Shown: in pieces, positions 15,094 to 61,416 of the stretch
Position numbering within the stretch: the first letter of the stretch is position 1
Layout: every line of letters begins with the position of its first letter
Assembly: GCA_050123235.1 (NCBI GenBank)
Contig: JASFHL010000006.1
Coordinates: 1,707 to 65,706 of the forward strand
Direction: 5' to 3'
DNA length: 64,000 nt
Origin: Candidatus Woesebacteria bacterium
GTDB taxonomy: Bacteria > Patescibacteriota > Microgenomatia > UBA1400 > PJMF01
The notes under the pieces: generated by a model
What the model was told of the DNA's origin: nothing
What the model saw: only the letters and a program-made list of their open reading frames with translations
Database searches by the model: none
Translations under genes and position numbers: made by a program

Positions 15094-16608
15094 TTAATTA
15101 GAGTTATTGAGCTGTTTAACTGCACCTATAAATAAAATGTCATTATTATCTTTATTTAAAATTAAGAAAACAAAAGCTTTATTTACCTCCAACTCAAAAG
15201 CTTGATCAGTTTTAAATTCTTTGGTCGATGCTCCTAAAACCTGTTCCATTTCGGCATCAGTGACAGCAGTATTATCTGCTCCAGCTTCATCTATCTCTAT
15301 CAAGCTTTGGTGCATGACATTAGTCAAGGCTAGCTTTTTATCAGTCAGTTTTTTAAAATCCGCTTTTGAAGAAAAAGCTAGCTTAAGTCCAAGGGTTTCC
15401 AGAGCTTCTTTTAATTCTGTTTGATAACTGATATTAAATTTTGGTAAAGAAAAACTACCTTCTGTCTTAGCAAAATTTTCTAGCCAAGTATCTAAATTAC
15501 TTTGATTCAATTCAGAAAGAAAATCTTCTAGAGTATTTTTAGGTAAAAAGATATAAAGATTGAGATTTTTGTTTTTACCTAAAGGCAAAGCAACTGCCTG
15601 AAAAGCAGAGCTATCCAAATACATAAAGTCTTCTCTATACTGATTCATAAATGGAATCTTCTGACTTGAACCATCAACAGCAGTAAAATCTTTCTCTTGA
15701 TTAAGCTTTTTATCAAAACCATAAGTCCACAAGCCCTTAAAGGCAACAAGATTAGCCACATAAACTTGAGTGTCAGTTGCAGCTTGCACCTCTAGCTGAC
15801 TAGCATTTTCAGCTCCTAAACTTTCTTTTCTCCAGGCATCAATAGTTTTAACAGCATTTGGTCCAGCAAAATCAAGATTTTCAGCTTTAGCACCATAATA
15901 TTGTCTATTTGCTTCCAAAAACTCAGCCTTGAAATCAGCACCTTGCTGTGCCCAAACCGCATTAGCCAAATTTATTTTTATCTCTGGATCAGCGTTTTGA
16001 ATAAAGGCGATCAACTTAGCACTACCTTGATTAAGCTGAGTTAAGTCCATGCCTTTGATATTCAATCCTTCAGCAATTTCATCTTGAGTTTGATTGTTAG
16101 CACCGTTATTGAGCATTGAGAGAACCAGTGCGATGCTAGAAGGAGAAATAAAAACATTTTGATCTTGTTTTAAGGTAAGAACTTTAAAAAGATTAAGACC
16201 AAAAGAATTAAAAGCCAAGGGGAGATCACGAGTCTCTTGGTATTGTTTTTTATCATAAGTCACTTCTTTGGGTGTCGGCAAAACCGGAGGAATAGCTACA
16301 CTTTTATCAACTTGCTTACTTTTCCAGTCTTGATAGACATTCCAAGCTGCGAAGCAAAGAATAGCTAGTACAGCTAATAAAGCTACTATAGATATTAACT
16401 TGAAGACTGTTGGCTGTTGATCATTCTGTTGATTTATTTTTGCTTTCAAATCTGAGGCTTGAGGAGGTGGTTGAGTAGGGGGGCTAGGATCAGCTACAGG
16501 AAAAGTTTGATCTACATTATCATTGACAGCACTCATAGTTGGTGGAAGCTGACTTTGCTTAGCTACAGGCTGTTGTTTGGCATTAAAAACTGTATTTTCT
16601 TCTGACAT
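15094..16608 (-). CDS. membrane-anchored serpin-domain protein
   Basis: Pro/Gln-rich N-terminus plus one TM helix, then a serpin core (NLVAFKGLW; hinge EAGADNTAVTDA; C-terminal FVFLILNKDNNDILFIGAV). Confidence 0.7.
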   Translation of the reverse strand: MSEENTVFNAKQQPVAKQSQLPPTMSAVNDNVDQTFPVADPSPPTQPPPQASDLKAKINQQNDQQPTVFKLISIVALLAVLAILCFAAWNVYQDWKSKQVDKSVAIPPVLPTPKEVTYDKKQYQETRDLPLAFNSFGLNLFKVLTLKQDQNVFISPSSIALVLSMLNNGANNQTQDEIAEGLNIKGMDLTQLNQGSAKLIAFIQNADPEIKINLANAVWAQQGADFKAEFLEANRQYYGAKAENLDFAGPNAVKTIDAWRKESLGAENASQLEVQAATDTQVYVANLVAFKGLWTYGFDKKLNQEKDFTAVDGSSQKIPFMNQYREDFMYLDSSAFQAVALPLGKNKNLNLYIFLPKNTLEDFLSELNQSNLDTWLENFAKTEGSFSLPKFNISYQTELKEALETLGLKLAFSSKADFKKLTDKKLALTNVMHQSLIEIDEAGADNTAVTDAEMEQVLGASTKEFKTDQAFELEVNKAFVFLILNKDNNDILFIGAVKQLNNSN

Positions 16609-16989: not shown

Positions 16990-17925
16990 TTAAGCTTTAG
17001 CCAAAGCGCTTGTTTCAGATTTTCTCTTCCAATTTAAATCTATCACCCCTAGCGGCACTTCATCATTTGGATCATCTACAAAAAACAAAATAACTTTACC
17101 ACGGCTTTTTGGACTCCAAATTTTTCCCTCTCTAATCACTTCAGGAGAGCCACCAAACTGTTTTTTCACCCACTGGGCTGGACCAGCATCAGCAACCACT
17201 CCCACAACTGCTAATTCTTCATTAGGGTTAATTACTATCATTTTGCGAAATTTATACCAAGGTTTTAACTCTTTATAATTAGTATTCCAATCTGGTAAAT
17301 ACAAAGTCTGTACAGCAAAATAATATTTTTCTCTTTGAATATCTTGCTCAGTTAATTCCATATTTTGACTAAACCAACCAAAAGCTCCTCTATTTTCAGC
17401 TAAGCCTGCTTCCAAATAAGCATCATGCTGAGCCAAAGTATCTGTGGGAAATCTTTTTAAATGTTGCTCTCCTCCCATAATCCCAATGCTATGATTAAGC
17501 CTATGACTGTCAAGCTCAGCAGTGACCTCAAACCCCAAAATATCATTTAATTGTTGTTCCAAATAAAGTTCATCTTCTTTTGCTAAGTGTCCAGCCTCTA
17601 TATTAACAAAGCTAATCATTTTATTAATCACCTCTTGATGTTCTTCTTCATTCAATTGAGCAAGACTTTTATCTCCTGTTTCCTCCTCTACTAGCTGAAT
17701 TTGTTCTTCTATCTGAGCTTCAACTGGTTGGCTAACAATCACCTGCCCAGCAAGAGAAACTGCAGCCATCAATTGTTGAGTCAAATCTTTGAGATCTTCC
17801 AATTCCAAGGAGTTTTTTTTCAACCAAACTGATAATTCTTGATGTTTATCCAAAAAATTTTGTTTAATTTTTTGATAAGAAGATTGAACTTTATTTGACT
17901 GGGCAGTTTTTTTGACAGTAGTCAT
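16990..17925 (-). CDS. hypothetical protein (C-terminus weakly RlpA/DPBB-like)
   Basis: Start/stop coupled to gltX. C-terminal MIVINPNEELAVVGVVADAGP is vaguely like the RlpA VtNl.NGrsvvVrInDRGP segment. Confidence 0.4.
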   Translation of the reverse strand: MTTVKKTAQSNKVQSSYQKIKQNFLDKHQELSVWLKKNSLELEDLKDLTQQLMAAVSLAGQVIVSQPVEAQIEEQIQLVEEETGDKSLAQLNEEEHQEVINKMISFVNIEAGHLAKEDELYLEQQLNDILGFEVTAELDSHRLNHSIGIMGGEQHLKRFPTDTLAQHDAYLEAGLAENRGAFGWFSQNMELTEQDIQREKYYFAVQTLYLPDWNTNYKELKPWYKFRKMIVINPNEELAVVGVVADAGPAQWVKKQFGGSPEVIREGKIWSPKSRGKVILFFVDDPNDEVPLGVIDLNWKRKSETSALAKA

Positions 17926-19454
17926 TATTGTGTTTTTAAAAATCTAATTGCAGTCTCAATTCTACTAAAACTTTTGTCTTTTCCCAGAACCTCCATCAAC
18001 TCATACAAAGGTGGCGTAAATTTTCTAGCAGTAATAGCAGAACGCAAAGACATAAACAGGTCTTTATGTTTAAAATCAAAATCATCGGCACATTTTCTAA
18101 TTGTCGCCTCCCAAGTTTCTGGATTATAGTCGGTTAAATTCTCTAGTCTTTCTTTTACAGCTATTAAAATTTCAATTATTGTTTGTTTATCATGACCTTG
18201 TAATAAGTCTTCTAAATCATAAACTAATTTATTTAAATAATAAAAATCTAGTAGATCATGAAGTTCTGAAAAAACTTTCAGTCTTTCTTGAGCTAAAGCT
18301 AAAGCATTTTTAAAAAAATCTGCATCTTTTGCTATCCATTCTAAAATTCTTTTAGCCCCATCAATAATTTTCTCATCTGAGCCTTTTCCAGCTACCCATT
18401 CAGCCCAAGATTGAATTTCTTTGAACAAAAGATCTAACTCCTTTTTCCTAATATAAATTCCATTTAACCAATTCAATTTTTTAGTATCAAAGATAGGGCC
18501 AGTAATATTAAGCTGCTCCCACTCAAAGATCTCCATCATTTCTTCCTTAGTGAAAATTTCTCTTTGATCAGCAGGCTTCCATAATAAAAGAGCTAAAAAA
18601 TTTAACAAAGCATCTGCTAAGTAACCCTGCTCACGATACCACCATAATGAAGTATTCCCCTTTCTTTTTGATAATTTAGATCTATCTGGATTTCTCAAAA
18701 CAGGGGTATGAAGCATTACTGGTGGCTGCCAGCCAAAGTATTCATAAAGTAAAATATGTTTGGGAGCACTAGGTAACCACTCTTCACCACGTTTCATATG
18801 AGTAATTTCCATCAAGTGATCATCAACTACCACTGCTAGATGATAAGTTGGAAAAGCGTCAGATTTTAGTAAAACTTGATCATCCACAATATTACTATCA
18901 AATTCTACTTCACCTCGCAAAACATCATGAACAATAATTTTCTGATCATCTGGAACTTTAAGTCTAATCACAGCTTTTTCCCCTTTGCTCAAATGTTCTT
19001 CAACTTCCTTCTTAGTTAAAGATCGACATTTTCTATCATACTTTGGTGGAATACCCTCTTTTTGTTGTTGCTTTCTCATCTTAGCCAAACGCTCTGCTGA
19101 ACAAAAACAATAATAAGCTTTATCTTTATCAATTAATTCTTGAGCGTATTTTTGATAAATAGCCAATCTTTCTGATTGACGATAAGGAGCATATGGACCA
19201 CCTACTTTAGGACTCTCATCAGGATTTAATGCTAACCAATCTAAGGCTTCATGAATTGTCTCTTCACTGCCTTCAACATAGCGTTTTCTATCTGTATCTT
19301 CTATTCTAAGAATAAATTTCCCTTGATAACGACGGGCAAAAACCCAATTAAATAAAACTTGAAAAGCAGTTCCCACATGAGGATAACCCGTTGGGGAAGG
19401 AGCTTCCCGAGTTCTAACTTTGCCAATTAATTTTTTATTTCTTGTATCTAGCAT
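17925..19454 (-). CDS. gltX: glutamate--tRNA ligase
   Basis: PSPTGYPHVGTA (HIGH-class) and KLSKRKG (KMSKS) motifs. Confidence 0.9.
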   Translation of the reverse strand: MLDTRNKKLIGKVRTREAPSPTGYPHVGTAFQVLFNWVFARRYQGKFILRIEDTDRKRYVEGSEETIHEALDWLALNPDESPKVGGPYAPYRQSERLAIYQKYAQELIDKDKAYYCFCSAERLAKMRKQQQKEGIPPKYDRKCRSLTKKEVEEHLSKGEKAVIRLKVPDDQKIIVHDVLRGEVEFDSNIVDDQVLLKSDAFPTYHLAVVVDDHLMEITHMKRGEEWLPSAPKHILLYEYFGWQPPVMLHTPVLRNPDRSKLSKRKGNTSLWWYREQGYLADALLNFLALLLWKPADQREIFTKEEMMEIFEWEQLNITGPIFDTKKLNWLNGIYIRKKELDLLFKEIQSWAEWVAGKGSDEKIIDGAKRILEWIAKDADFFKNALALAQERLKVFSELHDLLDFYYLNKLVYDLEDLLQGHDKQTIIEILIAVKERLENLTDYNPETWEATIRKCADDFDFKHKDLFMSLRSAITARKFTPPLYELMEVLGKDKSFSRIETAIRFLKTQ

Positions 19455-19460
19455 ATTAAT

Positions 19461-20537
19461 TTAATCAGCCACAACTCTTGGATCTAGAGCAGGCACATAG
19501 CCTAAGAAAGCATCATCGCCTTCAAAAACAAAAATGGGTTGTAAGTATTCTTGCTCTACAAAAGAATCAAAATAAGCTAAGTAAACATTTCTAATCACAG
19601 CTTCTTCCAATTTTTGATCACTTAAAGTAAAACCCTCCCCAGCTTGTAATAATTTCCAGGCCTCCTGAGGACTTCTTAAAGGATAAGTTTCAACTGTCAA
19701 GTAATCAATTGCCTGGTAATTATACTCCATCTGTAAAATAGCATCGTTTCCTCTTAAAACACCGGTAATGATAGCCGTAATTGTTCCTTTATACCCCCCA
19801 GGGGTATACATTCTAAATTCACCATCAATAGGATAGCGGTTAAGATCAACTTTCACAAAATCTGCATCCGACAAAGACACAGCTTCTTCCAATTCTGAGC
19901 CTAATGATTTCAAATAACTAATATCACCTGAACTAGTAGCCACATCTTCTGGTAACAAATTAGCTGATCTTAAAAAAGTTTTTAGCAAATTAACTGATTC
20001 AAAGTCATCTGGCAAATTTTTATTCAAAATTAAATCTGGTCTAGACAAATAATCAGTTTTAAAAACAAAATGCATATTTTGAATATCCAAATCAAAAGTA
20101 GATTCCAAAGGTTCTGATCTAGTCCAACGATAAGTTCTTTCATCTAAAACTTGAGGTTCAAAAACAAAATTGTATATCTGAGCCACTCTTCTTGCTTCTT
20201 GATCTGCTAACAAGCTAGGAGCGGACTTTAGAGCTAAAAATACCTTGGCTCTATCACCAAATGAAGGAAAACTAGCTGTTGCTAATTCTAAACGATATGA
20301 TTTTGGCACTTGATCTGGATCCTGTTCGGGAAAGACAATGGCTGGTAGTTTCCCAAAACCCATAGTCGGAGGGGGGGGTGGTTCTGGATGTATAGCTTTC
20401 CAAAAAGAAATAAAAGCAGATAAAAACATTCTGCCCACAATTAAAACAACTAAAGTGATAATGCTAAATTTGATAGTTTGTCTACCAATTCTAGCTACAT
20501 TGGTTAAAGTTGGGGCAGAAGAATCAGTAGCTGGCAT
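19461..20537 (-). CDS. hypothetical N-terminally anchored extracytoplasmic protein
   Basis: One N-terminal TM followed by a PPPPP linker. Contains a G8/C8 homopolymer in the coding sequence. Confidence 0.4.
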   Translation of the reverse strand: MPATDSSAPTLTNVARIGRQTIKFSIITLVVLIVGRMFLSAFISFWKAIHPEPPPPPTMGFGKLPAIVFPEQDPDQVPKSYRLELATASFPSFGDRAKVFLALKSAPSLLADQEARRVAQIYNFVFEPQVLDERTYRWTRSEPLESTFDLDIQNMHFVFKTDYLSRPDLILNKNLPDDFESVNLLKTFLRSANLLPEDVATSSGDISYLKSLGSELEEAVSLSDADFVKVDLNRYPIDGEFRMYTPGGYKGTITAIITGVLRGNDAILQMEYNYQAIDYLTVETYPLRSPQEAWKLLQAGEGFTLSDQKLEEAVIRNVYLAYFDSFVEQEYLQPIFVFEGDDAFLGYVPALDPRVVAD

Positions 20538-20668: not shown

Positions 20669-21613
20669 TTAACTAATTTCCTCCCAATGGTAATTTTTAA
20701 AAACCCAATCAATAATTTCTTTTGTTTCTCTGTAGCGGTCTTGACTATTCATTAGAACAATTAAAATTTGATGATTATCTCTTTCCAATAAAGTAATTAA
20801 TACTTGGCCTGCCCATGGAGTAGTGCCAGTTTTTAAACCTCTTACGCCTTCTTCACTGCCCAGTAGATCATTAGTGTTATAAAGATAATGCTTGATCCGT
20901 CCAGTAGTATCAGTGACTATAATTTTTTTCTGTTCTACCAATTCTTTTAAAAATGTGTTTTTCAAAAACTCACGACTAATAATAGCTAAATCAAAGGCAG
21001 TGCTTTGGTGATTCTGATCATCTAAGCCAGAAGGATTGGTAAATCTAGTATTTTCTAGATGCAAAGCTTCCGCCATCTGGTTCATTTCCAAAACAAAACC
21101 AGCATAACCTAAGGGATGATTACTAGCTAAAACAAAGGCAGCATCATTGGCTGAAGCAACTAGTAAGCCAGTCAAGAGTTCTTTAACAGCAATTTGTTCT
21201 TTAAGTCTTAAACCCATGGTATTTCCTTGAGTAAAAGCTTCTTTATTAACAACTAGGGTGCGATTATCAGGATATGTTTTGGCAGCTACTAAGGCAGTCA
21301 TTAGTTTGGTAGTTGAAGCAGGGTAGCGCAAGCTACGAGCTTCTTTTTCTAACAGAATAGCTGAAGATGCTAAGTCTATGACCAAATAACTTTGGGCAGT
21401 CAGTTGGGCTAGTTGATTGTCCTGAATAGCTAATTCCGTGGAATTGCTAGCAGTTCTCACGGCCACTGGTGATGGTTTAATTAAATCAAGAGTGATTTCT
21501 TGACTTAATTGGCTTTGAGAATCAACTTCTTGTCCATAGACTACAGACTGAACTAAAAAAAATAAACAAATAAAAAGAATAGTTAAATACTGATCAAAGC
21601 GTAATTTTGGCAC
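20669..21613 (-). CDS. D-alanyl-D-alanine carboxypeptidase (S11, PBP5-like)
   Basis: Signal peptide and an SxxK active-site motif (ASTTKLMT). Confidence 0.75.
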   Translation of the reverse strand: MPKLRFDQYLTILFICLFFLVQSVVYGQEVDSQSQLSQEITLDLIKPSPVAVRTASNSTELAIQDNQLAQLTAQSYLVIDLASSAILLEKEARSLRYPASTTKLMTALVAAKTYPDNRTLVVNKEAFTQGNTMGLRLKEQIAVKELLTGLLVASANDAAFVLASNHPLGYAGFVLEMNQMAEALHLENTRFTNPSGLDDQNHQSTAFDLAIISREFLKNTFLKELVEQKKIIVTDTTGRIKHYLYNTNDLLGSEEGVRGLKTGTTPWAGQVLITLLERDNHQILIVLMNSQDRYRETKEIIDWVFKNYHWEEIS

Positions 21614-21661: not shown

Positions 21662-23536
21662 TTAAATTTTTATCAATTCTGGCTTTTCCAATTTTAAAAA
21701 ATCCTTCATTGACATCACTACCGAGCGATCATGGCGACCAACATTGAAAGCCATAGTTTTTTCTTTAGCTAAATCAGAATCTAAATAGGTTTTAAGCTGT
21801 ATGCTAGAACCAAAAGGTGGAATGGCACCAATTTCTAAAGCTGTTCTTTCTTTAACCTCTTCTTTTGAGGCCATAGTTAATTTACTTTCATTAAAATATT
21901 TTTTCAAAAGTTTAAAATCAGCCTTTTTATTTCCCGCTAAAACAAATAAAACATATTTTTTATTTTTATCTTTACCTAATCTTAAAACTAAAGCCTTAGC
22001 ACCTTGATGTGCAGCTGTTCCTCTAATTTTGGCTGCTTCTTCACTGGTATAAACAGGTTCATGAGCAAAATATTGATAATCAGCGCCACTGTTTTGTAAT
22101 TTATTGACAATAAAATCATGTGGACTTTGGCTCTCTACAGCAACAGCGATACCTAATTCATCAAGTTGATCAGCTTCCACTACGCTTGGCGCTGACATCA
22201 CGGCTGTGCGTCCAGTTGAGGTCATTGGGAAGGCAATCACTTCTTTTAATGAACTTTCTCCTGCCAATAACATCACTAAACGATCAATACCTAAAGCAAT
22301 GCCACCATGAGGAGGAGTCCCAAGTTCAAAAGCTTTGAGCATATGGCCAATACTATCTTCTATTTCTTGATCACTATAACCCATTATTTTAAAAGTAGAT
22401 TTAAGTAGTTCTGCTGTATGAGCGCGGATACTACCGCCACCTGCTTCATAGCCATTACAGACCAAGTCATACTGAGCAGTGATGATTTTATCAATATTAC
22501 GGCCTGCTAGATGATCCTCTATATGCTCTGGCAACGGGCTACTAAAAGGGTTATGAGTGAAAGTCCAGCCACTCTTGCCATCTTGTACTTCAGCAGCATC
22601 TTCTTTATCTACTTTTTTAAAAAAAGGAAAATTTACTACCCAAGCAAATGCTAAAACACCTTTCTTTTTTTCTTTTTCTGTTCTGAGATCAAATTTATCA
22701 TCCCCATATTTTTTAAGGGCATCTTGATAATTAATGACTGGAAAAGTCTCATCTTTGAGTTTGCCACCAACTGCTTTGATAGCAGTCTTGACCAATTCTT
22801 CTACTACTTGCATCACTTCCTCTTGACTAGCAAAGCTTAGCTCTAAATCAAACTGAGTAAACTCAAAACCTCTGTCAGATCTTAAATCCTCATCACGAAT
22901 ACAACGAGCAACTTGGAAATATCTTTCCAGCCCTGCAGTCATTAATAGCTGTTTATATTGTTGAGGGCTTTGAGGTAAAGCATAAAACTTACCCAGCTGA
23001 AAACGAGAAGGGACAATAAAGTCTCTAGCACCTTCTTTGGTTGATTTAGTTAAGATTGGTGTTTCAACTTCTACAAAATCTTGCTTGAACAAATGCTCCC
23101 TTAAAGCCCTAATAAATTCTGACCTCAGACGCATAATCTTTTGCATTCTATCTCGTCTCAAATCTAGATAGCGGTATTTCAATCTCACTTCTTCACCGAT
23201 TTCCTTACCATCACCGTCAAGAGAAATTGGCAAATCAATTGATTTGTTCAAAATCTTGTAACTTTCAAGTTCCAGCTCAACTTTACCGGTAGCAATCTTT
23301 TCATTAAAGTTAGCCTTATCTCGTTGTTTGACTATGCCAATCACCTCTACCACAGATTCAACTGTTAAATCTCTTAATTGATTATCGACTCCCACGCATT
23401 GAATGAACCCTGTTCTATCCCTTAAATCAATGAAAGTAACTTTACCATGATCACGTTTACTATTCACCCAGCCTTGGAGCTTAATCTTTTTACCAACAGA
23501 TTTGGGGGCATGGTGGATGAGTGTGCGTGTCTGCAT
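21662..23536 (-). CDS. aspS: aspartate--tRNA ligase lacking the GAD insertion domain, fused to a C-terminal YbaK/ProX-like deacylase domain
   Basis: Bacterial-type motifs QSPQQYKQLLM, FEFTQFDLELSF, GGGSIR and GIALGIDRL. Only ~135 aa lie between motifs 2 and 3. About 160 aa follow the usual end with KALVLRL...IGAIPPFG...VGRHDRSVVMS, which is YbaK-like. Confidence 0.85.
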   Translation of the reverse strand: MQTRTLIHHAPKSVGKKIKLQGWVNSKRDHGKVTFIDLRDRTGFIQCVGVDNQLRDLTVESVVEVIGIVKQRDKANFNEKIATGKVELELESYKILNKSIDLPISLDGDGKEIGEEVRLKYRYLDLRRDRMQKIMRLRSEFIRALREHLFKQDFVEVETPILTKSTKEGARDFIVPSRFQLGKFYALPQSPQQYKQLLMTAGLERYFQVARCIRDEDLRSDRGFEFTQFDLELSFASQEEVMQVVEELVKTAIKAVGGKLKDETFPVINYQDALKKYGDDKFDLRTEKEKKKGVLAFAWVVNFPFFKKVDKEDAAEVQDGKSGWTFTHNPFSSPLPEHIEDHLAGRNIDKIITAQYDLVCNGYEAGGGSIRAHTAELLKSTFKIMGYSDQEIEDSIGHMLKAFELGTPPHGGIALGIDRLVMLLAGESSLKEVIAFPMTSTGRTAVMSAPSVVEADQLDELGIAVAVESQSPHDFIVNKLQNSGADYQYFAHEPVYTSEEAAKIRGTAAHQGAKALVLRLGKDKNKKYVLFVLAGNKKADFKLLKKYFNESKLTMASKEEVKERTALEIGAIPPFGSSIQLKTYLDSDLAKEKTMAFNVGRHDRSVVMSMKDFLKLEKPELIKI

Positions 23537-23593: not shown

Positions 23594-25108
23594 TCAGTGA
23601 TTAGCCATCTTAGCTTCAAATGGCATATTAACTGTATATTCTGGTTTAAATCTATCTACTTCCGCGTGTCTTCTATCTTCATCATTTATCGCAATACTTC
23701 CTAGAATCAATTGTCCTTCTACTACTTGAGGAAAATAACGGGCATTATAAACGTCAACATTTTTTATTCTATAAACAACTTCTGGATTTTTTAAATCTAT
23801 TGCCACTAAAACATCATAATTTAAAGTAGCACCTTCCTGATGATTTGCTCTTACTACAATTAAATCTTGTCTGCCGAGTCTAATATAACTAGGAGACGAT
23901 AAAAAATTAACTCCATAAGCTGTCAAATCAGCAACTGGCTGCCAGCTGGCATCTTCTGCAGCTGAAGTAGCAAGATATAGCCTCTCGCCGTCAGCTTTTA
24001 TGATTTGATGATTCGGAGTAATACAAAAATTAGAGTTATGTCTACATGCTAAACCATCACTGCCTTCTTCTCGAAGAATGCTGAATTCACCTGTTCTTGG
24101 ATCAAGTTCAATTTGAGCTTGCCTAATACGGCCATCTTGATCACCTGCTGTAATTCCTTCATCAGTATGCATTTTTGTTCTCAAATTCCCATCTTCAACT
24201 CTAAATTGAGATTTTACTCTACTAGAAGAAATAGATTCATAAGTCAAACAAGTAAGTTGATAAGTATTCTCTGTGCCTGGTACCAGAGTGAGACTAAAAC
24301 GATCGCCATAAGGATCAGTATAACCCGGGAGAGCTTCTTCAACCATAATTACTGGTTCAGAGATAGTACGGGAACCATCCTCATTAGTTTTGATGCTTAT
24401 GGCTTCAATTTGATCGCTGGGTACTCCATTGCTCACAATATGTCTTTTATAAACTATGAAAACAATATCTGTTGTAATTCTGCTAGAAAGAATAGGATTA
24501 TCAATAGCTTCATAGTTATATGCATCTCTGTATACCCATGGAGCAATTACCTCATGATTGGCTACTGATCCATCAGTATTATATGCTACCCAATATAAAC
24601 CGCGACCATCATCTGGCCAAACAAAGCCACTTTCTCCAAGATAGGCAATAGAAGAAAGTCCAGCTGCTGTAGACTGTTCTATCCAATTTAAAACGTAAAT
24701 TGGCACTTGATAACCTAGTTCTCTTTCTAAGATTACTACTCTTCCAAGTTCATCATTATCAAAGACAGCCCTCTCCAAAAACATTTCACCTACAATACCC
24801 CAGTTAGTATCCATAGTCCTACTAACAACTGTCGCTCCTGCAGCAGAACTTGCCTGAACATGATCAACACTAAGCCATAAATTATCAGGCTCTTTAGGTG
24901 GTAAATCAGCATGACCTGTTTGAACAAATAATTCTTTATATGGTTCTGGTGAGGAAGTACTTTCTAGTGAAGAGGTCTCTTGAGCAGTAGCTTCTTCGCC
25001 TGGGAATAGTCTCCTCCCTGTAACTAGTGCTCCAACCATGGAAGCTGTTCCTTTAAGCCATTCTCTTCTGTTCAAAGGTTTTCTTAAAAAAGACTTTTCT
25101 TCAGACAT
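23594..25108 (-). CDS. hypothetical secreted protein with twin-arginine (Tat) signal
   Basis: N-terminal NRREWLKGTASMVGALVTG. Confidence 0.5.
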   Translation of the reverse strand: MSEEKSFLRKPLNRREWLKGTASMVGALVTGRRLFPGEEATAQETSSLESTSSPEPYKELFVQTGHADLPPKEPDNLWLSVDHVQASSAAGATVVSRTMDTNWGIVGEMFLERAVFDNDELGRVVILERELGYQVPIYVLNWIEQSTAAGLSSIAYLGESGFVWPDDGRGLYWVAYNTDGSVANHEVIAPWVYRDAYNYEAIDNPILSSRITTDIVFIVYKRHIVSNGVPSDQIEAISIKTNEDGSRTISEPVIMVEEALPGYTDPYGDRFSLTLVPGTENTYQLTCLTYESISSSRVKSQFRVEDGNLRTKMHTDEGITAGDQDGRIRQAQIELDPRTGEFSILREEGSDGLACRHNSNFCITPNHQIIKADGERLYLATSAAEDASWQPVADLTAYGVNFLSSPSYIRLGRQDLIVVRANHQEGATLNYDVLVAIDLKNPEVVYRIKNVDVYNARYFPQVVEGQLILGSIAINDEDRRHAEVDRFKPEYTVNMPFEAKMANH

Positions 25109-29511: not shown

Positions 29512-30987
29512 ATGTCTGATCAATATTTCTATCTCACCACCACCTTACCGTATGTCAATGCTTCACCACATATTGGTTTTGGTTTAGAAATTACTGAAGC
29601 TGATGTGATTGCCAGATATATGATGATGAAACTTGGTGAAAGAAATGTGTTTTTCAATACTGGGACTGATGAACATGGGCAAAAAATCTATCAAAAAGCA
29701 ATGGAGGCAAAATTAGATCCTCAAAAATATTGTGATCAATATGCAGCTAAATTCGCTGATCTAAAAAAACAGCTCAATCTTAAATACAATCATTTTATTA
29801 GAACCACTGAGCAGCATCACGTTAAAGCTGCTCAAGAGTTTTGGCGTCGTTGTCAAAAAAATGCTGATATTTACAAAAAACTTTATAAAATAAAATACTG
29901 TGTTGGCTGTGAGTTAGAAAAAACTGACAGTGAGCTGCTTGATGGTAAATGCCAGTTACACCCTAATCGTGACTTAGAAATTAGAGAAGAGGAAAATTAT
30001 TTTTTTAGATTTTCAAAATATCAACAAGCTTTATTAGATCTTTATCAACAACAACCTCATTTTGTCAAACCAGTAAGCAAGATGAAAGAAATTATTAGTT
30101 TTGTAAAACAAGGTCTGCAAGACTTCAGTATTTCTAGATTAAAATCAAAAATGCCTTGGGGCATCCCAGTACCAGGAGATAAAGAACATGTGATGTATGT
30201 TTGGTTCGATGCCTTGATTAACTATATTTCTACTATTGGCTGGCCAGATGATACTGATAGTTTTAGAAAATATTGGCCAGGTTTGCCAGAATCAGAAACA
30301 CTAGCACCAGAAAAAATTTCTTGCATTCAACTAGCTGGTAAAGATAATCTTCGCCAGCAATCGGCCATGTGGCAAGCAATGTTACTCTCAGCTGGCTTGC
30401 CAACTACCCAGCAAATTTTAATTAATGGCTTTATTAGCATTGATGGTCAAAAAATGAGTAAATCTTTGGGTAATGTCATCTCCCCAAAACAAATGGTGGA
30501 GCGTTATGGGACTGATGCCACTAGATATCTTTTAATTTCATTAGGTGCTTTTAGCAGTGATATGGATGTTAATTGGGATAAGTTTGATAACAAATACACT
30601 GCTGATTTGACAAATGGCTTAGGTAACTTATGTTCCAGAGTGGCTAAGATGTGTGAGAAGGCGGGAATCGGATCAGTGGAGGCAAAAATCAAACTTAACG
30701 CTAATTATGAACAGGCTATGACTAATTTTGAACTTAATGATGCTCTAAGTGAAACTATGCTTTTAATTAGTAAAGAAGATCAATTTCTCAGTGAAGCTAA
30801 GCCATGGCAATTAGCGGGTGAAGATCAGGCCTTAATATTAGCTAATTCTGCTACTAATATCCTCACTATCGCTCATCATCTCCAGCCTTTTATGCCAGAA
30901 ACAGCTCAAAAAATCTTAGATCACTTTAACAAGAAAAAAATAGTTGCACTTAAAGCACTTTTTCCTAGATTAAAGCAATCTAAATAA
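29512..30987 (+). CDS. metG: methionine--tRNA ligase
   Basis: HIGF (HIGH-class) and KMSKSLGN motifs. Zn-knuckle cysteines present. Confidence 0.9.
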   Translation: MSDQYFYLTTTLPYVNASPHIGFGLEITEADVIARYMMMKLGERNVFFNTGTDEHGQKIYQKAMEAKLDPQKYCDQYAAKFADLKKQLNLKYNHFIRTTEQHHVKAAQEFWRRCQKNADIYKKLYKIKYCVGCELEKTDSELLDGKCQLHPNRDLEIREEENYFFRFSKYQQALLDLYQQQPHFVKPVSKMKEIISFVKQGLQDFSISRLKSKMPWGIPVPGDKEHVMYVWFDALINYISTIGWPDDTDSFRKYWPGLPESETLAPEKISCIQLAGKDNLRQQSAMWQAMLLSAGLPTTQQILINGFISIDGQKMSKSLGNVISPKQMVERYGTDATRYLLISLGAFSSDMDVNWDKFDNKYTADLTNGLGNLCSRVAKMCEKAGIGSVEAKIKLNANYEQAMTNFELNDALSETMLLISKEDQFLSEAKPWQLAGEDQALILANSATNILTIAHHLQPFMPETAQKILDHFNKKKIVALKALFPRLKQSK

Positions 30988-39656: not shown

Positions 39657-40538
39657 TTAGCAAAAATTTGCTTGGATAACAGCCTTCAAATCCTGTTTCA
39701 GCTCTGGCTTATCTTTAGCCACCATCAGATTAGCCTTTAACCAGCCTGATAAATTACCTCCATCTAAATAAGTCCCTTGAGGGGTAAATACTAGCACTTC
39801 ATCTGTTTTAATTAAATTTAGCAAAGAATCAGTGATCAAAACTTCTTTAACTCTAGCATTGGGTTTTTGTTGTTCAATAATATTAAAAATTTGTGGAGTA
39901 AAAACATATTTACTAATATTAACTAAATTTGATGGTGCTTGACCCGAAGCTGGTTTTTCTATCAAAGCAGTTAGATAATTAAAACCTTCTCTGTTTTCAA
40001 CTTTAGCTACCCCATAGCGATGTAAATCTTTTTCTTTTTTTTCAATACAAGTCATTAAAGCTGCTGTATGACTCATTTTAAAACAATTAATCATTCTTGA
40101 AGTTTCAGAAGAGCCATCAGCATTATAAATAAAATCATCACCCATAAAAACTAAAAAAGCATCTTCATTTTTAACATGTTCTTTAGCTAATAAAACAGGT
40201 ATGGCTGTACCGTATTCATCATCGTCACTTTGTTTAACAAAATGGAACTTTGCTTTTTAATGAAGTGTTTTAATTTTTTTATAAAGATGCAGTTTTTGTC
40301 TTTTTTTTAAATAATGAAACAAACGTTTATTTTCTCTATAAAAATGCAGAATTTGATAATTATGTTTACTAATCACAAAAATAATTTCTTCAATGCCTGC
40401 TTTAACACAATCTTCTACCACATAATCGATCAAAGGCCTATTCAAAACTGGTAACATTTCTTTCTGAATGCTTTTAGTAATAGGGAGCATCCTGCTACCA
40501 AAACCAGCTGCTGCTATGACTGCTTTTTTAATTTTCAT
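39657..40538 (-). pseudogene. UTP--glucose-1-phosphate uridylyltransferase (GalU)-like gene interrupted by one in-frame TAA (plus 40257-40259)
   Basis: N-terminal part KAVIAAAGFGSRMLPITKSIQKEMLPV and C-terminal part GDDFIY... are in the same frame. The 111 nt between them also encode GalU-like sequence (GTAIPVLLAKEHVKNEDAFLVF). Confidence 0.6.
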
Positions 40539-58670: not shown

Positions 58671-59147
58671 TTAGTTTAAAAGCACTATTGCTAAATTTAG
58701 GATGCTAGCAAAACTGACCCAGAGTAGATAAGGAATCAACAAGTAGCTTGCTGATTTATTAAGAAGAAAAAATCTTCTAATTGTAAGCACAATCAAAAAC
58801 CATAAAAGTATAATTTCCAGGAAAGCAAGCCCTGGTAGCTGTAGACCAAAAAAAATGATGGACCATAAAAAATTGAAAAATAATTGTAATAAAAAAATTA
58901 TTTTTGCTTTCTTTAAAAATTTTTTTTTAGACTTTCCTTGCCAAACTAAATAAAAAGCTAAACCCATCATCAAATACAAGCTTATCCAGACAGGAGCAAA
59001 TATCCAATCAGGTGGGTTAAAAAAGGGTTTGTTTAAGTCAAAATACCAAGTCCTGACACTACTACTGGTAAAAAAAGAAGCCAATAAACCGGCTAGCTGA
59101 GGTAATAATAAAGCGATGATTAATTTTTGCCAATAGATTTTTTTCAT
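58671..59147 (-). CDS. tspO: tryptophan-rich sensory protein TspO/MBR
   Basis: FFNPPDWIFAPVWISLYLMMGLAFYLVW five-TM signature. Confidence 0.8.
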   Translation of the reverse strand: MKKIYWQKLIIALLLPQLAGLLASFFTSSSVRTWYFDLNKPFFNPPDWIFAPVWISLYLMMGLAFYLVWQGKSKKKFLKKAKIIFLLQLFFNFLWSIIFFGLQLPGLAFLEIILLWFLIVLTIRRFFLLNKSASYLLIPYLLWVSFASILNLAIVLLN

Positions 59148-60963: not shown

Positions 60964-61416
60964 TCATTGAGCCTCTTCTTTACTAAACAATCCTACTAGC
61001 TCCGTACTTTCTAAGACATGCCCTTCCATGGCTTTTTTTAAATCTGCTTTTTCTGCTTCATTATCTAAGTCTAAAACTGTATCAAGAGCAAAAAGTTTAA
61101 AAAAATAGCGATGGGTGCCAGAAGGAGGACATGGGCCACCATAATCAGTTTTAAAAAAGCTATTCACACCAGCCACAGCAGCTTTAGGTGTAGTATTTTC
61201 TTCAATCTTAGCTACCTGAGGAATATTCCACAGCAACCAATGCACCCAATCTCCTGCTGGGGCATCAGGATCATCAACTATTAAAGCTAAACTTAGAGTT
61301 CCTTCTGGAATCCCTGATATTTCTAAAGGTGGGCTGATATTTTCACCCTTACAGCTATATTTTGGAGGAATTTGACCATTATGAATAAAAGCTGGGCTAG
61401 TAAGAGTCAGAGGCAT
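60964..61416 (-). CDS. YbhB/YbcL PEBP-family protein
   Basis: IVDDPDAPAG...WVHWLLWNIP PEBP signature. Confidence 0.8.
   Translation of the reverse strand: MPLTLTSPAFIHNGQIPPKYSCKGENISPPLEISGIPEGTLSLALIVDDPDAPAGDWVHWLLWNIPQVAKIEENTTPKAAVAGVNSFFKTDYGGPCPPSGTHRYFFKLFALDTVLDLDNEAEKADLKKAMEGHVLESTELVGLFSKEEAQ

What the first reader, a model, noticed from the sequence alone, without database searches (positions are those of the whole stretch)
21662..23536. AspRS without GAD domain but with an appended YbaK/ProX-like trans-editing domain
The catalytic core has bacterial-type signatures (QSPQ, FTQ.D.E.SF). The roughly 115-aa GAD insertion normally found between motifs 2 and 3 is absent. The protein then continues about 160 aa past the usual C-terminus, with sequence matching the YbaK/ProX aminoacyl-tRNA deacylase fold. 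I am not aware of an AspRS-YbaK fusion being described. It could edit mischarged tRNA-Asp or tRNA-Asn in a non-discriminating AspRS context, or supply a Cys/Ala-tRNA(Pro) deacylase activity in trans from a convenient fusion partner.
Basis: partly seen in the sequence, partly recalled or inferred. Interest (0 to 1): 0.65.

Follow-up and report, generated by a model that had tools for sequence, protein, structure and literature searches.

The report
AspRS fused to YeaK-like editing domain
This gene from a Woesebacteria (candidate phyla radiation) genome joins an aspartyl-tRNA synthetase to a YeaK-type aminoacyl-tRNA proofreading domain; the fusion is real, common in this bacterial group, recurs on three different kinds of AspRS, and appears undescribed in the literature I could search.

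Summary
ORF 21662..23536 (-) encodes 624 aa: an OB anticodon-binding domain, a bacterial-type class IIb AspRS core in which about 8 residues replace the roughly 125-aa GAD insertion, the native bacterial C-terminal extension, an 8-aa linker and a complete tRNA_edit (INS/YbaK-fold) domain.

It is not an assembly artefact. More than 100 independent 90%-identity clusters from Patescibacteria share the architecture, some on contigs over 1 Mb. The exact protein is already in NCBI (MGD9129552.1, Candidatus Woesebacteria).

- **GAD loss is separate from the fusion.** All 80 closest GTDB relatives lack GAD, fused or not, and GAD-containing AspRS–editing fusions also exist.
- **The domain's closest characterised relative is E. 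coli YeaK/ProXp-ST1**, a Ser/Thr-tRNA deacylase (37% identity, E 3e-34), not YbaK or ProXp-ala.
- **The fusion arose from adjacent genes.** aspS and the deacylase gene sit next to each other, overlapping by ATGA in one relative, in a conserved block. The same domain is also widely fused to archaeal-type aspartate–tRNA(Asn) ligase.

Catalytic Lys514 and the GxxxP loop are invariant, so an active deacylase tethered to AspRS is most likely. Its substrate and its cis or trans mode are unresolved. I found no paper describing this architecture.

The parts
21662..23536 (-). Whole gene: 624-aa AspRS fused to a YeaK-like deacylase (stop codon at 21662-21664).
   Evidence: ORF listing. Domain searches. 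Identical protein in NCBI, MGD9129552.1, Candidatus Woesebacteria.
23249..23482 (-). OB-fold anticodon-binding domain (aa 19-96).
   Evidence: Pfam PF01336, 4e-14. pLDDT above 89 in the AF2 model.
22220..23194 (-). Class IIb catalytic core (aa 115-439), with QSPQ and motifs 1-3 intact.
   Evidence: Pfam PF00152, 1.7e-108. Invariant across 111 fusions: P160, Q189-Q193, R214-D217, R222, E225, Q228, E232, G411, G412, R419. Best structural matches are bacterial AspRS.
22652..22678 (-). Short connector (aa 287-295, EKEKKKGVL) at the site where bacterial AspRS normally carries the roughly 125-aa GAD insertion.
   Evidence: Two-segment alignments to 5w25 and PRK00476. No Pfam GAD hit. Translation.
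22142..22219 (-). Native bacterial-type AspRS C-terminal extension (aa 440-465, ending ...QLDELGIAV).
   Evidence: Aligns with residues up to 607 of Mtb AspRS. Matches the C-termini of unfused relatives in L001 and L082.
22118..22141 (-). Linker of about 8 residues (aa 466-473, AVESQSPH) at the former gene boundary.
   Evidence: Junction comparison with split genes; in L082 the two genes overlap by ATGA. Lower pLDDT here.
21665..22117 (-). YeaK/ProXp-ST1-like aminoacyl-tRNA deacylase domain of the INS/YbaK fold (aa 474-624).
   Evidence: PF04073 over its full length. Domain model pLDDT 95.3. TM about 0.8 to all INS-family structures. 37% identity to E. coli YeaK, E 3e-34. YeaK scores 124 bits against the domain profile.
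21995..21997 (-). Codon for Lys514, the INS-superfamily catalytic lysine (in GAKALV).
   Evidence: Invariant in 111 fusions and in 114 free-standing homologs. Aligns with the Lys in YeaK GAKALV. Translation.
21815..21829 (-). GxxxP loop (G570-A-I-P-P574) of the deacylase active site.
   Evidence: G570, P573 and P574 are invariant. Translation.
20669..21613 (-). Downstream neighbour: D-Ala-D-Ala carboxypeptidase (Peptidase_S11), part of the conserved block.
   Evidence: Pfam PF00768, 5.6e-48. Same neighbour in L001, L082, L083, L085 and L088.
19461..20537 (-). Conserved 358-aa gene of unknown function within the block.
   Evidence: No Pfam or NCBIfam hit. A no-Pfam gene of 356-436 aa occupies the same position in the related loci.
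17925..19454 (-). GluRS, the last member of the conserved block aspS-[edit]-S11-X-gltX.
   Evidence: Pfam tRNA-synt_1c plus Anticodon_2. Same position in the related loci.

Best explanation
The gene encodes a functional bacterial-type AspRS whose C-terminus is joined, through about 8 residues, to a catalytically intact YeaK/ProXp-ST1-type aminoacyl-tRNA deacylase. AspRS in this phylum generally lacks GAD.

**Origin.** The fusion arose when the stop codon was lost between aspS and a translationally coupled deacylase gene immediately downstream. Both sit in a conserved Patescibacteria block: RecJ - aspS - edit - Peptidase_S11 - X - gltX.

**Proposed mechanism.** The AspRS core aspartylates tRNA. 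The tethered domain hydrolyses the ester bond of a wrongly acylated tRNA, using the INS-family Lys and GxxxP active site. This gives AspRS, a synthetase with no known editing activity, a physically coupled proofreading step.

**Shown here:** the architecture, the homology, conservation of the active-site residues, the origin from adjacent genes, and the recurrence on three AspRS scaffolds.

**Inferred, with my estimates:**
- The domain is an active deacylase: about 0.8.
- It acts preferentially on tRNAs handled by AspRS (tRNA-Asp or tRNA-Asn), not purely in trans: about 0.45.
- The amino acid removed is Ser/Thr-like, as for YeaK: about 0.35.
For: **Architecture**
- Domain architecture and the clean GAD deletion.
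- Confident models: full length pLDDT 88, domain alone pLDDT 95.
- INS fold, TM about 0.8.

**Closest characterised relative is E. coli YeaK**
- 124 bits against the domain profile.
- hhalign probability 99.85%.
- 37% identity over 151 aa with one gap, E 3e-34.
- For comparison: 3op6 scores 112 bits, YbaK and ProXp-x about 60, ProXp-ala 45-50.

**Active site retained**
- H492, K514, G570, P573 and P574 are invariant in 111 fusions.
- The same residues are conserved in free-standing homologs.

**The fusion is real and widespread**
- 110 full-length relatives at 56-72% identity.
- 19 of the 80 best GTDB species loci are fused.

**Adjacent-gene precursors exist**
- True stop codon and a separate ATG in L018, L021 and L028.
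- ATGA overlap in L082.

**Association with AspRS across AspRS types**
- Adjacent to archaeal-type ND-AspRS in L085.
- Fused to archaeal-type AspRS in about 80 of the top 120 clusters.
- Fused to GAD-containing AspRS.
- Among the 150 family representatives, 18 are AspRS fusions or fragments, against 2 Peptidase_S11 fusions and 1 RuvX fusion.
- An archaeal-type fusion persists outside the ancestral block, in L091.

**Known activity of the related family**
- ProXp-ST1 hydrolyses Ser- and Thr-tRNAs with broad tRNA specificity (PMC11295145, read).
Against: - AspRS is not known to need editing, and no mischarged AspRS product is documented (my own knowledge).
- The domain is dispensable for AspRS. 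58 of 80 close relatives have no editing gene within 6 kb of aspS. The nearest core relatives of the window protein (75-76% identical) lack it. Fused, adjacent and absent states are interleaved on the AspRS tree.
- The same domain is mostly free-standing (114 of 150 representatives).
- It sits in unrelated contexts in other lineages.
- It stays in the block without aspS in L083.
- It is occasionally fused to the other neighbour, Peptidase_S11, or to RuvX. Adjacency alone could therefore drive fusion.
- T497, S498 and G576, conserved in this clade, differ in YeaK. Amino-acid specificity may differ.
- I could not inspect interdomain geometry, because no coordinates or PAE were available. The linker has low pLDDT.
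Confidence: 0.6

Rival explanations
1. Opportunistic fusion of a general trans-editing factor. The YeaK-like domain still works in trans on many tRNAs, for example Ser/Thr mischarged by ThrRS, AlaRS, ValRS, IleRS or LysRS. AspRS is only a carrier that provides co-expression and stability. The fusion reflects tight gene packing, not a functional tie to aspartylation.
For: - ProXp-ST1 has broad tRNA specificity and is indifferent to N73 (PMC11295145).
- Most family members are free-standing.
- Conserved residues are the same in fused and free forms.
- The domain is also fused to Peptidase_S11 and to RuvX.
- Frequent loss, and interleaved states on the AspRS tree.
- The ATGA overlap makes accidental fusion easy.
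Against: - AspRS fusions far outnumber other fusions: 18 against 3 among the representatives.
- More than 100 bacterial-type clusters and about 80 archaeal-type clusters carry the fusion.
- The association survives replacement of aspS by an unrelated AspRS type.
- It also survives relocation out of the block.
Confidence: 0.3
2. Surveillance of the indirect asparagine pathway. The domain hydrolyses Asp-tRNA(Asn) that escapes GatCAB, and perhaps recognises the acceptor stem of tRNA-Asn. This would prevent Asp being inserted at Asn codons.
For: - The domain is fused or adjacent to proteins that pass the NCBIfam equivalog for aspartate-tRNA(Asn) ligase.
- The block also carries gltX.
- GAD, proposed to help retain Asp-tRNA(Asn) (PMC3367201), is missing in most of these AspRS.
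Against: - It would be a futile cycle with the fused synthetase.
- No INS-family member is known to remove Asp.
- The closest relative removes Ser/Thr.
- GAD-containing fusions exist.
- GatCAB and AsnRS status is unknown for these genomes: none is in the window.
Confidence: 0.06
3. A non-catalytic role. The appended domain acts as a tRNA-binding or scaffolding module, or as a structural substitute for the missing GAD domain.
For: [quoted passage not shown]
- The window protein lacks GAD.
Against: - The catalytic Lys and the GxxxP loop are strictly invariant.
- GAD-less AspRS without the domain is the majority state.
- AspRS proteins that keep GAD also carry the domain.
- The domain is attached at the C-terminus, not at the GAD insertion site.
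Confidence: 0.03
4. Artefact: an assembly or sequencing frameshift, or a gene-calling error, that joined two separate genes.
For: Separate adjacent genes do exist in some relatives.
Against: - The window has one uninterrupted ORF.
- The same 624-aa protein is found in independent sources: NCBI, JGI and Logan.
- 110 full-length homologs come from independent assemblies, including contigs of 0.5-1.4 Mb.
- 19 GTDB species carry the fusion.
Confidence: 0.01

Closest known systems
E. coli YeaK / ProXp-ST1 (free-standing Ser/Thr-tRNA deacylase, INS superfamily)
   Same: End-to-end homology with the C-terminal domain: 37% identity with one gap, E 3e-34. Shared residues are the H492 equivalent, R505, K514 in GAKALV, the GxxPP loop, the FN(A)G motif and D612. 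Both also have the small insertion after the Lys strand.
   Different: YeaK is a single-domain protein that acts in trans. Here the domain is covalently attached to AspRS. Clade-specific T497, S498 and G576 are K, C and S in YeaK. Activity and specificity are untested.
Bacterial-type AspRS (E. coli, T. thermophilus, M. tuberculosis; NCBIfam PRK00476)
   Same: OB-fold anticodon-binding domain, class IIb core, QSPQ and motifs 1-3, and the bacterial C-terminal extension. Scores above the equivalog cutoff. Best structural matches.
   Different: Lacks the roughly 125-aa GAD insertion and carries an extra C-terminal deacylase domain.
ProXp-ala-ProRS fusions of protists, and bacterial ProRS with the INS domain
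   Same: An INS-superfamily deacylase sits in the same polypeptide as a class II synthetase. For T. brucei ProRS, the full-length fusion deacylated better than the isolated INS-like domain (PMC11286415).
   Different: The partner is AspRS (class IIb), not ProRS (IIa). The domain is C-terminal, not N-terminal or inserted. The subfamily is YeaK-like, not ProXp-ala or INS.
PDB 3OP6 (Legionella lpg1207, uncharacterised INS-family protein)
   Same: Best solved relative: 112 bits against the domain profile, TM 0.78-0.84.
   Different: Free-standing, with no known function. I found no literature on it. It is less similar to the query domain than YeaK is.
YbaK (Cys-tRNA(Pro) deacylase) and ProXp-ala (Ala-tRNA(Pro) deacylase)
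   Same: Same fold, catalytic Lys and GxxxP loop.
   Different: Well below the YbaK equivalog cutoffs. Only about 60 bits (YbaK) and 45-50 bits (ProXp-ala) against the domain profile.

Membership tests
Bacterial-type aspartyl-tRNA synthetase (class IIb) | Passes the curated equivalog model for bacterial aspS. | tested here: met
   PRK00476 scores 579 bits against a cutoff of 443. TIGR00459 scores 510 against 374.
Bacterial-type aspartyl-tRNA synthetase (class IIb) | N-terminal OB anticodon-binding domain plus a class II core with motifs 1-3 and the QSPQ Asp-binding signature. | tested here: met
   Pfam hits. Invariant motif residues in 111 homologs.
Bacterial-type aspartyl-tRNA synthetase (class IIb) | GAD insertion domain between motifs 2 and 3. 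| tested here: not met
   No PF02938 hit at E<=1. About 125 reference residues are replaced by about 8. The same holds for all 80 closest GTDB relatives.
Bacterial-type aspartyl-tRNA synthetase (class IIb) | Aspartylation of tRNA-Asp, and discriminating versus non-discriminating specificity. | not testable with these tools
   Needs an enzyme assay or the whole-genome complement of AsnRS and GatCAB. Neither is in the window.
INS / YbaK superfamily (Pfam tRNA_edit PF04073) | Full-length match to the family profile, and the YbaK fold. | tested here: met
   PF04073 positions 1-123 of 123, E 1.2e-30. Foldseek TM about 0.8 to 3op6, 2cx5, 1wdv, 1dbx, 2dxa and 1vki.
INS / YbaK superfamily (Pfam tRNA_edit PF04073) | Conserved catalytic lysine and GxxxP loop. 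| tested here: met
   K514, G570, P573 and P574 are invariant.
INS / YbaK superfamily (Pfam tRNA_edit PF04073) | Hydrolysis of a mischarged aminoacyl-tRNA. | not testable with these tools
   Requires a deacylation assay.
YbaK proper (Cys-tRNA(Pro) deacylase) | Passes the YbaK equivalog models. | tested here: not met
   TIGR00011 scores 55.5 against a cutoff of 153. PRK10670 scores 24.3 against 243.
ProXp-ST1 (YeaK) | Closest sequence relationship, end to end, to E. coli YeaK compared with other INS families. | tested here: met
   YeaK scores 124 bits against the domain profile. Others: 3op6 112, YbaK, ProXp-x and APE2540 about 60, ProXp-ala 45-50. BLASTP gives 37% identity, E 3e-34.
ProXp-ST1 (YeaK) | Family-specific pocket residues and Ser/Thr specificity. 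| tested here: inconclusive
   9 of 12 clade-invariant positions are shared with YeaK. T497, S498 and G576 differ. Specificity needs an assay.
ProXp-ST1 (YeaK) | Single-domain, free-standing trans-acting protein. | tested here: not met
   Fused to AspRS in the window. Free-standing in sister lineages.
ProXp-ala (Ala-tRNA(Pro) deacylase) | Closest relationship to the characterised ProXp-ala proteins (C. crescentus, human). | tested here: not met
   1vjf and 5vxb score 45-46 bits, 1vki 49.6 and human 8huz 33.5. These are the lowest scores among the free-standing INS families.
Synthetases with a cis-editing domain (ProRS-INS, ThrRS, AlaRS, PheRS) | An editing domain in the same polypeptide as the synthetic site. 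| tested here: met
   Single ORF and domain order.
Synthetases with a cis-editing domain (ProRS-INS, ThrRS, AlaRS, PheRS) | The editing pocket is reachable by the CCA end of tRNA bound to the synthetase, and it hydrolyses the synthetase's own errors. | not testable with these tools
The linker has low pLDDT. Needs a complex model or structure, and kinetics.

The most novel reading that the evidence does not exclude
AspRS has always been regarded as a synthetase without proofreading. In a large part of the candidate phyla radiation it may have acquired a dedicated editing step. Under this reading, a YeaK-like deacylase recruited to three different AspRS scaffolds (bacterial with GAD, bacterial without GAD, and archaeal-type non-discriminating) clears a specific error of aspartylation. 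The error could be a non-cognate residue on tRNA-Asp or tRNA-Asn, or un-amidated Asp-tRNA(Asn). That would be a new class of synthetase-coupled editing, tied to the indirect Asn pathway.
Probability: 0.25. Interest if true: 0.8.

Novelty: new variant of a known kind. Interest (0 to 1): 0.58.

Why it matters
Editing domains are known for seven synthetase families, and AspRS is not among them. A 2024 review states that INS-superfamily deacylases outside ProRS are single-domain proteins (PMC11295145).

Hundreds of Patescibacteria lineages carry an INS-family (YeaK-like) deacylase welded to AspRS, on three structurally different AspRS scaffolds. That suggests one of two things:
- an unrecognised fidelity problem in aspartylation or in the indirect Asn pathway of these reduced-genome bacteria; or
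- a way of organising general proofreading around a synthetase.

It also offers a natural set of fused, split and absent variants for testing what tethering adds to trans-editing.

Separately, bacterial-type AspRS across Patescibacteria generally lacks the GAD domain. That bears on the unresolved function of GAD.

Tried and rejected
- **Frameshift or assembly artefact: rejected.** The fusion recurs in independent assemblies. The three apparent split cases have real stop and start codons.
- **The editing domain replaces GAD: rejected.** GAD-less unfused AspRS is the majority, and GAD-containing fusions exist.
- **YbaK or ProXp-ala identity: rejected.** Based on equivalog cutoffs and profile scores.
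- **3op6 as the closest relative: superseded.** YeaK is closer. YeaK itself has no close solved structure.
- **Counting fusion events: unresolved.** NJ trees of the editing domain and of the AspRS core interleave all states. A 150-aa domain with NJ is too weak to decide.
- **GatCAB, AsnRS, ProRS or DTD in the window: none found.** None is among the ORFs scanned. The only tRNAs are Ser-CGA and Arg-GCG. The discriminating versus non-discriminating question stays open.
- **Predicting specificity from anticodon-domain residues: not used.** E. coli N82 and M87 against the query's N76 and I81 rests on my memory only, and the signal is mixed.
  - The profile-based genome scan with the domain alignment failed because no stretch was conserved enough.
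  - The afdb50 fold library was unavailable.
  - The primary ProXp-ST1 and FthB papers were not held.
  - No literature was found on 3OP6 or lpg1207.
- **Literature search for the fusion: found nothing.** Ten searches covering AspRS with YbaK or ProXp, CPR or Patescibacteria with aaRS editing, and loss of the GAD domain found no description.
Full report
**1.

The window has one uninterrupted ORF at 21662..23536 on the minus strand, encoding 624 aa. Pfam finds three domains:
- tRNA_anti-codon at aa 19-96;
- tRNA-synt_2 at aa 115-439 (1.7e-108);
- a complete tRNA_edit domain at aa 492-616, covering profile positions 1-123 of 123 (1.2e-30).

There is no GAD hit, even at E<=1. NCBIfam places the protein above the curated cutoff of bacterial aspS (PRK00476, 579 bits against 443), but as two stretches. 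Against M. tuberculosis AspRS, residues 14-287 align to 37-313 and residues 295-464 align to 439-607. So about 125 residues of GAD are replaced by about 8 (EKEKKKGVL).

The synthetase part otherwise looks intact. QSPQ and motifs 1-3 are invariant across 111 homologs. The only low-confidence stretches in the AF2 model are two active-site loops and the interdomain linker. The model's best structural matches are bacterial AspRS.

**2. It is not an artefact, and the sequence is not new.**

The identical protein is in NCBI as MGD9129552.1, [quoted passage not shown]. JGI names it "aspartyl-tRNA synthetase". A full-length search returned 110 independent 90%-identity clusters with these properties:
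- 600-640 aa long;
- 56-72% identical to the query;
- the same three Pfam domains;
- named sources including Woese-, Beckwith- and Dojkabacteria (WS6) and unclassified Patescibacteria;
- several on contigs of 0.5-1.4 Mb.

Of the 80 best loci in GTDB species genomes, 19 are fused.

**3. GAD loss is a property of the phylum, not of the fusion.**

All 80 loci have a core of about 465 aa without GAD, whether or not an editing domain is attached. Conversely, P0266 (744 aa) and P0274 (748 aa) are complete bacterial AspRS proteins with GAD plus the same C-terminal domain. P0274 sits in the same gene neighbourhood (L088). The idea that the appended domain replaces GAD is therefore rejected.

The literature notes that GAD lies beside the active site, where ThrRS has its editing domain, and that it may help retain Asp-tRNA(Asn) (PMC3367201). 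Its general absence here is worth noting in its own right.

**4. What the appended domain is.**

The domain alone models at pLDDT 95. It superposes on every INS/YbaK-family structure at TM about 0.8, so the fold confirms the superfamily but not the subfamily.

A profile built from 30 diverse fused domains gives these scores:

| Reference | Bits |
|---|---|
| E. coli YeaK (ProXp-ST1) | 124 |
| 3op6 (uncharacterised Legionella protein) | 112 |
| YbaK, ProXp-x, APE2540 | about 60 |
| ProXp-ala | 45-50 |

The YbaK equivalog models are missed by a wide margin. I fetched E. coli YeaK from the K-12 genome. hhalign gives a probability of 99.85%. BLASTP against the window domain gives 37% identity over 151 residues with a single gap, E 3e-34. 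YeaK itself has no close solved structure.

ProXp-ST1 hydrolyses Ser- and Thr-mischarged tRNAs. It has broad tRNA specificity and does not depend on N73 (PMC11295145).

The catalytic Lys (K514), the GxxxP loop (G570, P573, P574) and H492 are invariant in the fusions. They are equally conserved in free-standing homologs. Three clade-specific positions (T497, S498, G576) differ from YeaK, so the amino-acid specificity may not be identical.

**5. How the fusion arose.**

Relatives share the block RecJ - aspS - [edit] - Peptidase_S11 - unknown - gltX. The window carries the last four members. The editing gene occurs in these states:

| State | Example |
|---|---|
| Fused to aspS | window |
| Separate, overlapping aspS by ATGA | L082 |
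| Separate, with its own ATG 2-10 nt after a true stop | L018, L021, L028 |
| Present without aspS | L083 |
| Absent | L001, whose AspRS is 75-76% identical to the query |

In the window, the native AspRS C-terminus (...ELGIAV) is followed by only about 8 residues before the first helix of the deacylase. A one-base indel in an ATGA overlap would be enough to fuse the two genes.

**6. The association with AspRS goes beyond one lineage of AspRS.**

- In L085, the aspS slot holds an archaeal-type aspartate-tRNA(Asn) ligase (PRK05159, 466 bits against a cutoff of 353), followed by the separate editing gene.
- L018 has archaeal-type aspS, bacterial GAD-less aspS and the editing gene in a row.
- P0249, P0316 and P0367 are archaeal-type AspRS fused to the domain.
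- This second fusion type is itself widespread. About 80 of the top 120 clusters are roughly 600 aa long and come from Roizman-, Ames-, Pace- and Woesebacteria, on contigs up to 1.2 Mb.
- One such fusion sits outside the ancestral block (L091).

An exhaustive profile search found 12,153 cluster representatives at E<=1e-3 and 340 at E<=1e-30. Among the best 150 (the S11 and RuvX partners were identified):
- 114 are free-standing;
- 18 are AspRS fusions or fragments of them;
- 3 are tandem arrays;
- 2 are fused to Peptidase_S11;
- 1 is fused to RuvX.

**7. Evidence that tempers a dedicated AspRS-editing role.**

- The domain is often absent next to aspS: 58 of 80 loci.
- Fused, adjacent and absent states are interleaved on an AspRS-core tree.
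- The domain trees do not separate the architectures.
- More distant free-standing members sit in unrelated contexts.
- Fusions to the other neighbour occur (L089).
- AspRS is not known to mischarge (my own knowledge).
- I could not examine interdomain geometry.

**8. Verdict.**

The most likely reading, at confidence 0.6, is a functional AspRS carrying a tethered, catalytically active YeaK/ProXp-ST1-type aminoacyl-tRNA deacylase, derived from fusion of adjacent genes. Two questions cannot be settled computationally:
- Does it proofread AspRS products (about 0.45), or does it act as a general trans-editing factor that uses AspRS as a carrier (about 0.3)?
- Does it remove Ser/Thr, as YeaK does (about 0.35)?

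**9. Novelty.**

Ten full-text searches found no description of an AspRS-INS/YbaK/ProXp fusion, or of GAD-less bacterial AspRS in CPR. A 2024 review states that INS members outside ProRS are single-domain proteins.

The sequences are abundant in public databases under ordinary AspRS names. I therefore classify this as a new variant of a known kind: two known modules in an undescribed, widespread and recurrent combination. My interest score is moderate to high, 0.58.

Noticed in passing
GTDB loci L002-L081 (AspRS ORFs); L088 6001-8247: Bacterial-type AspRS in Patescibacteria generally lacks the GAD insertion: all 80 closest species-level relatives have a core of about 465 aa. Rare relatives (P0266, P0274/L088) keep GAD. 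I found no paper noting this.
   Followed up: partly
L018 4646-6001, 5989-7416 and 7359-7889: One genome has an archaeal-type non-discriminating AspRS directly upstream of the bacterial GAD-less aspS and a separate editing gene. It looks like an intermediate of in-situ gene displacement.
   Followed up: partly
L089 5309-6769 (P0320); P0343; P0330; P0241, P0242: The same YeaK-like domain is also fused to the downstream D-Ala-D-Ala carboxypeptidase (two clusters) and to RuvX (one cluster of 5 members, on contigs up to 245 kb). It also occurs as triple tandem repeats.
   Followed up: partly
window 15094-16608 (-): A 504-aa serpin (PF00079, 5e-84) is encoded in this Woesebacteria genome.
   Followed up: no
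window 23594-25108 (-): The 504-aa ORF directly upstream of aspS has no Pfam or NCBIfam hit. Its N-terminus (NRREWLKGTASMVGALV) looks like a twin-arginine signal. In relatives, RecJ occupies the upstream position instead.
   Followed up: no
window 19461-20537 (-): This 358-aa ORF has no family hit. A no-Pfam gene of 356-436 aa occupies the same position (between Peptidase_S11 and gltX) in L001, L082, L083, L085 and L088.
   Followed up: partly
window 39657-40145 (-): This 162-aa ORF matches only the C-terminal part (profile positions 108-243 of 245) of NTP_transferase. It may be a truncated gene or a remnant.
   Followed up: no
window 29512-30987 (+): A compact 491-aa MetRS lies about 6 kb from aspS. 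With GluRS at 17925-19454, that makes three synthetase genes within 13 kb.
   Followed up: no
window 58671-59147 (-) and 60964-61416 (-): Genes of the TspO/MBR family and the PEBP family lie near tRNA-Ser(CGA) and tRNA-Arg(GCG).
   Followed up: no
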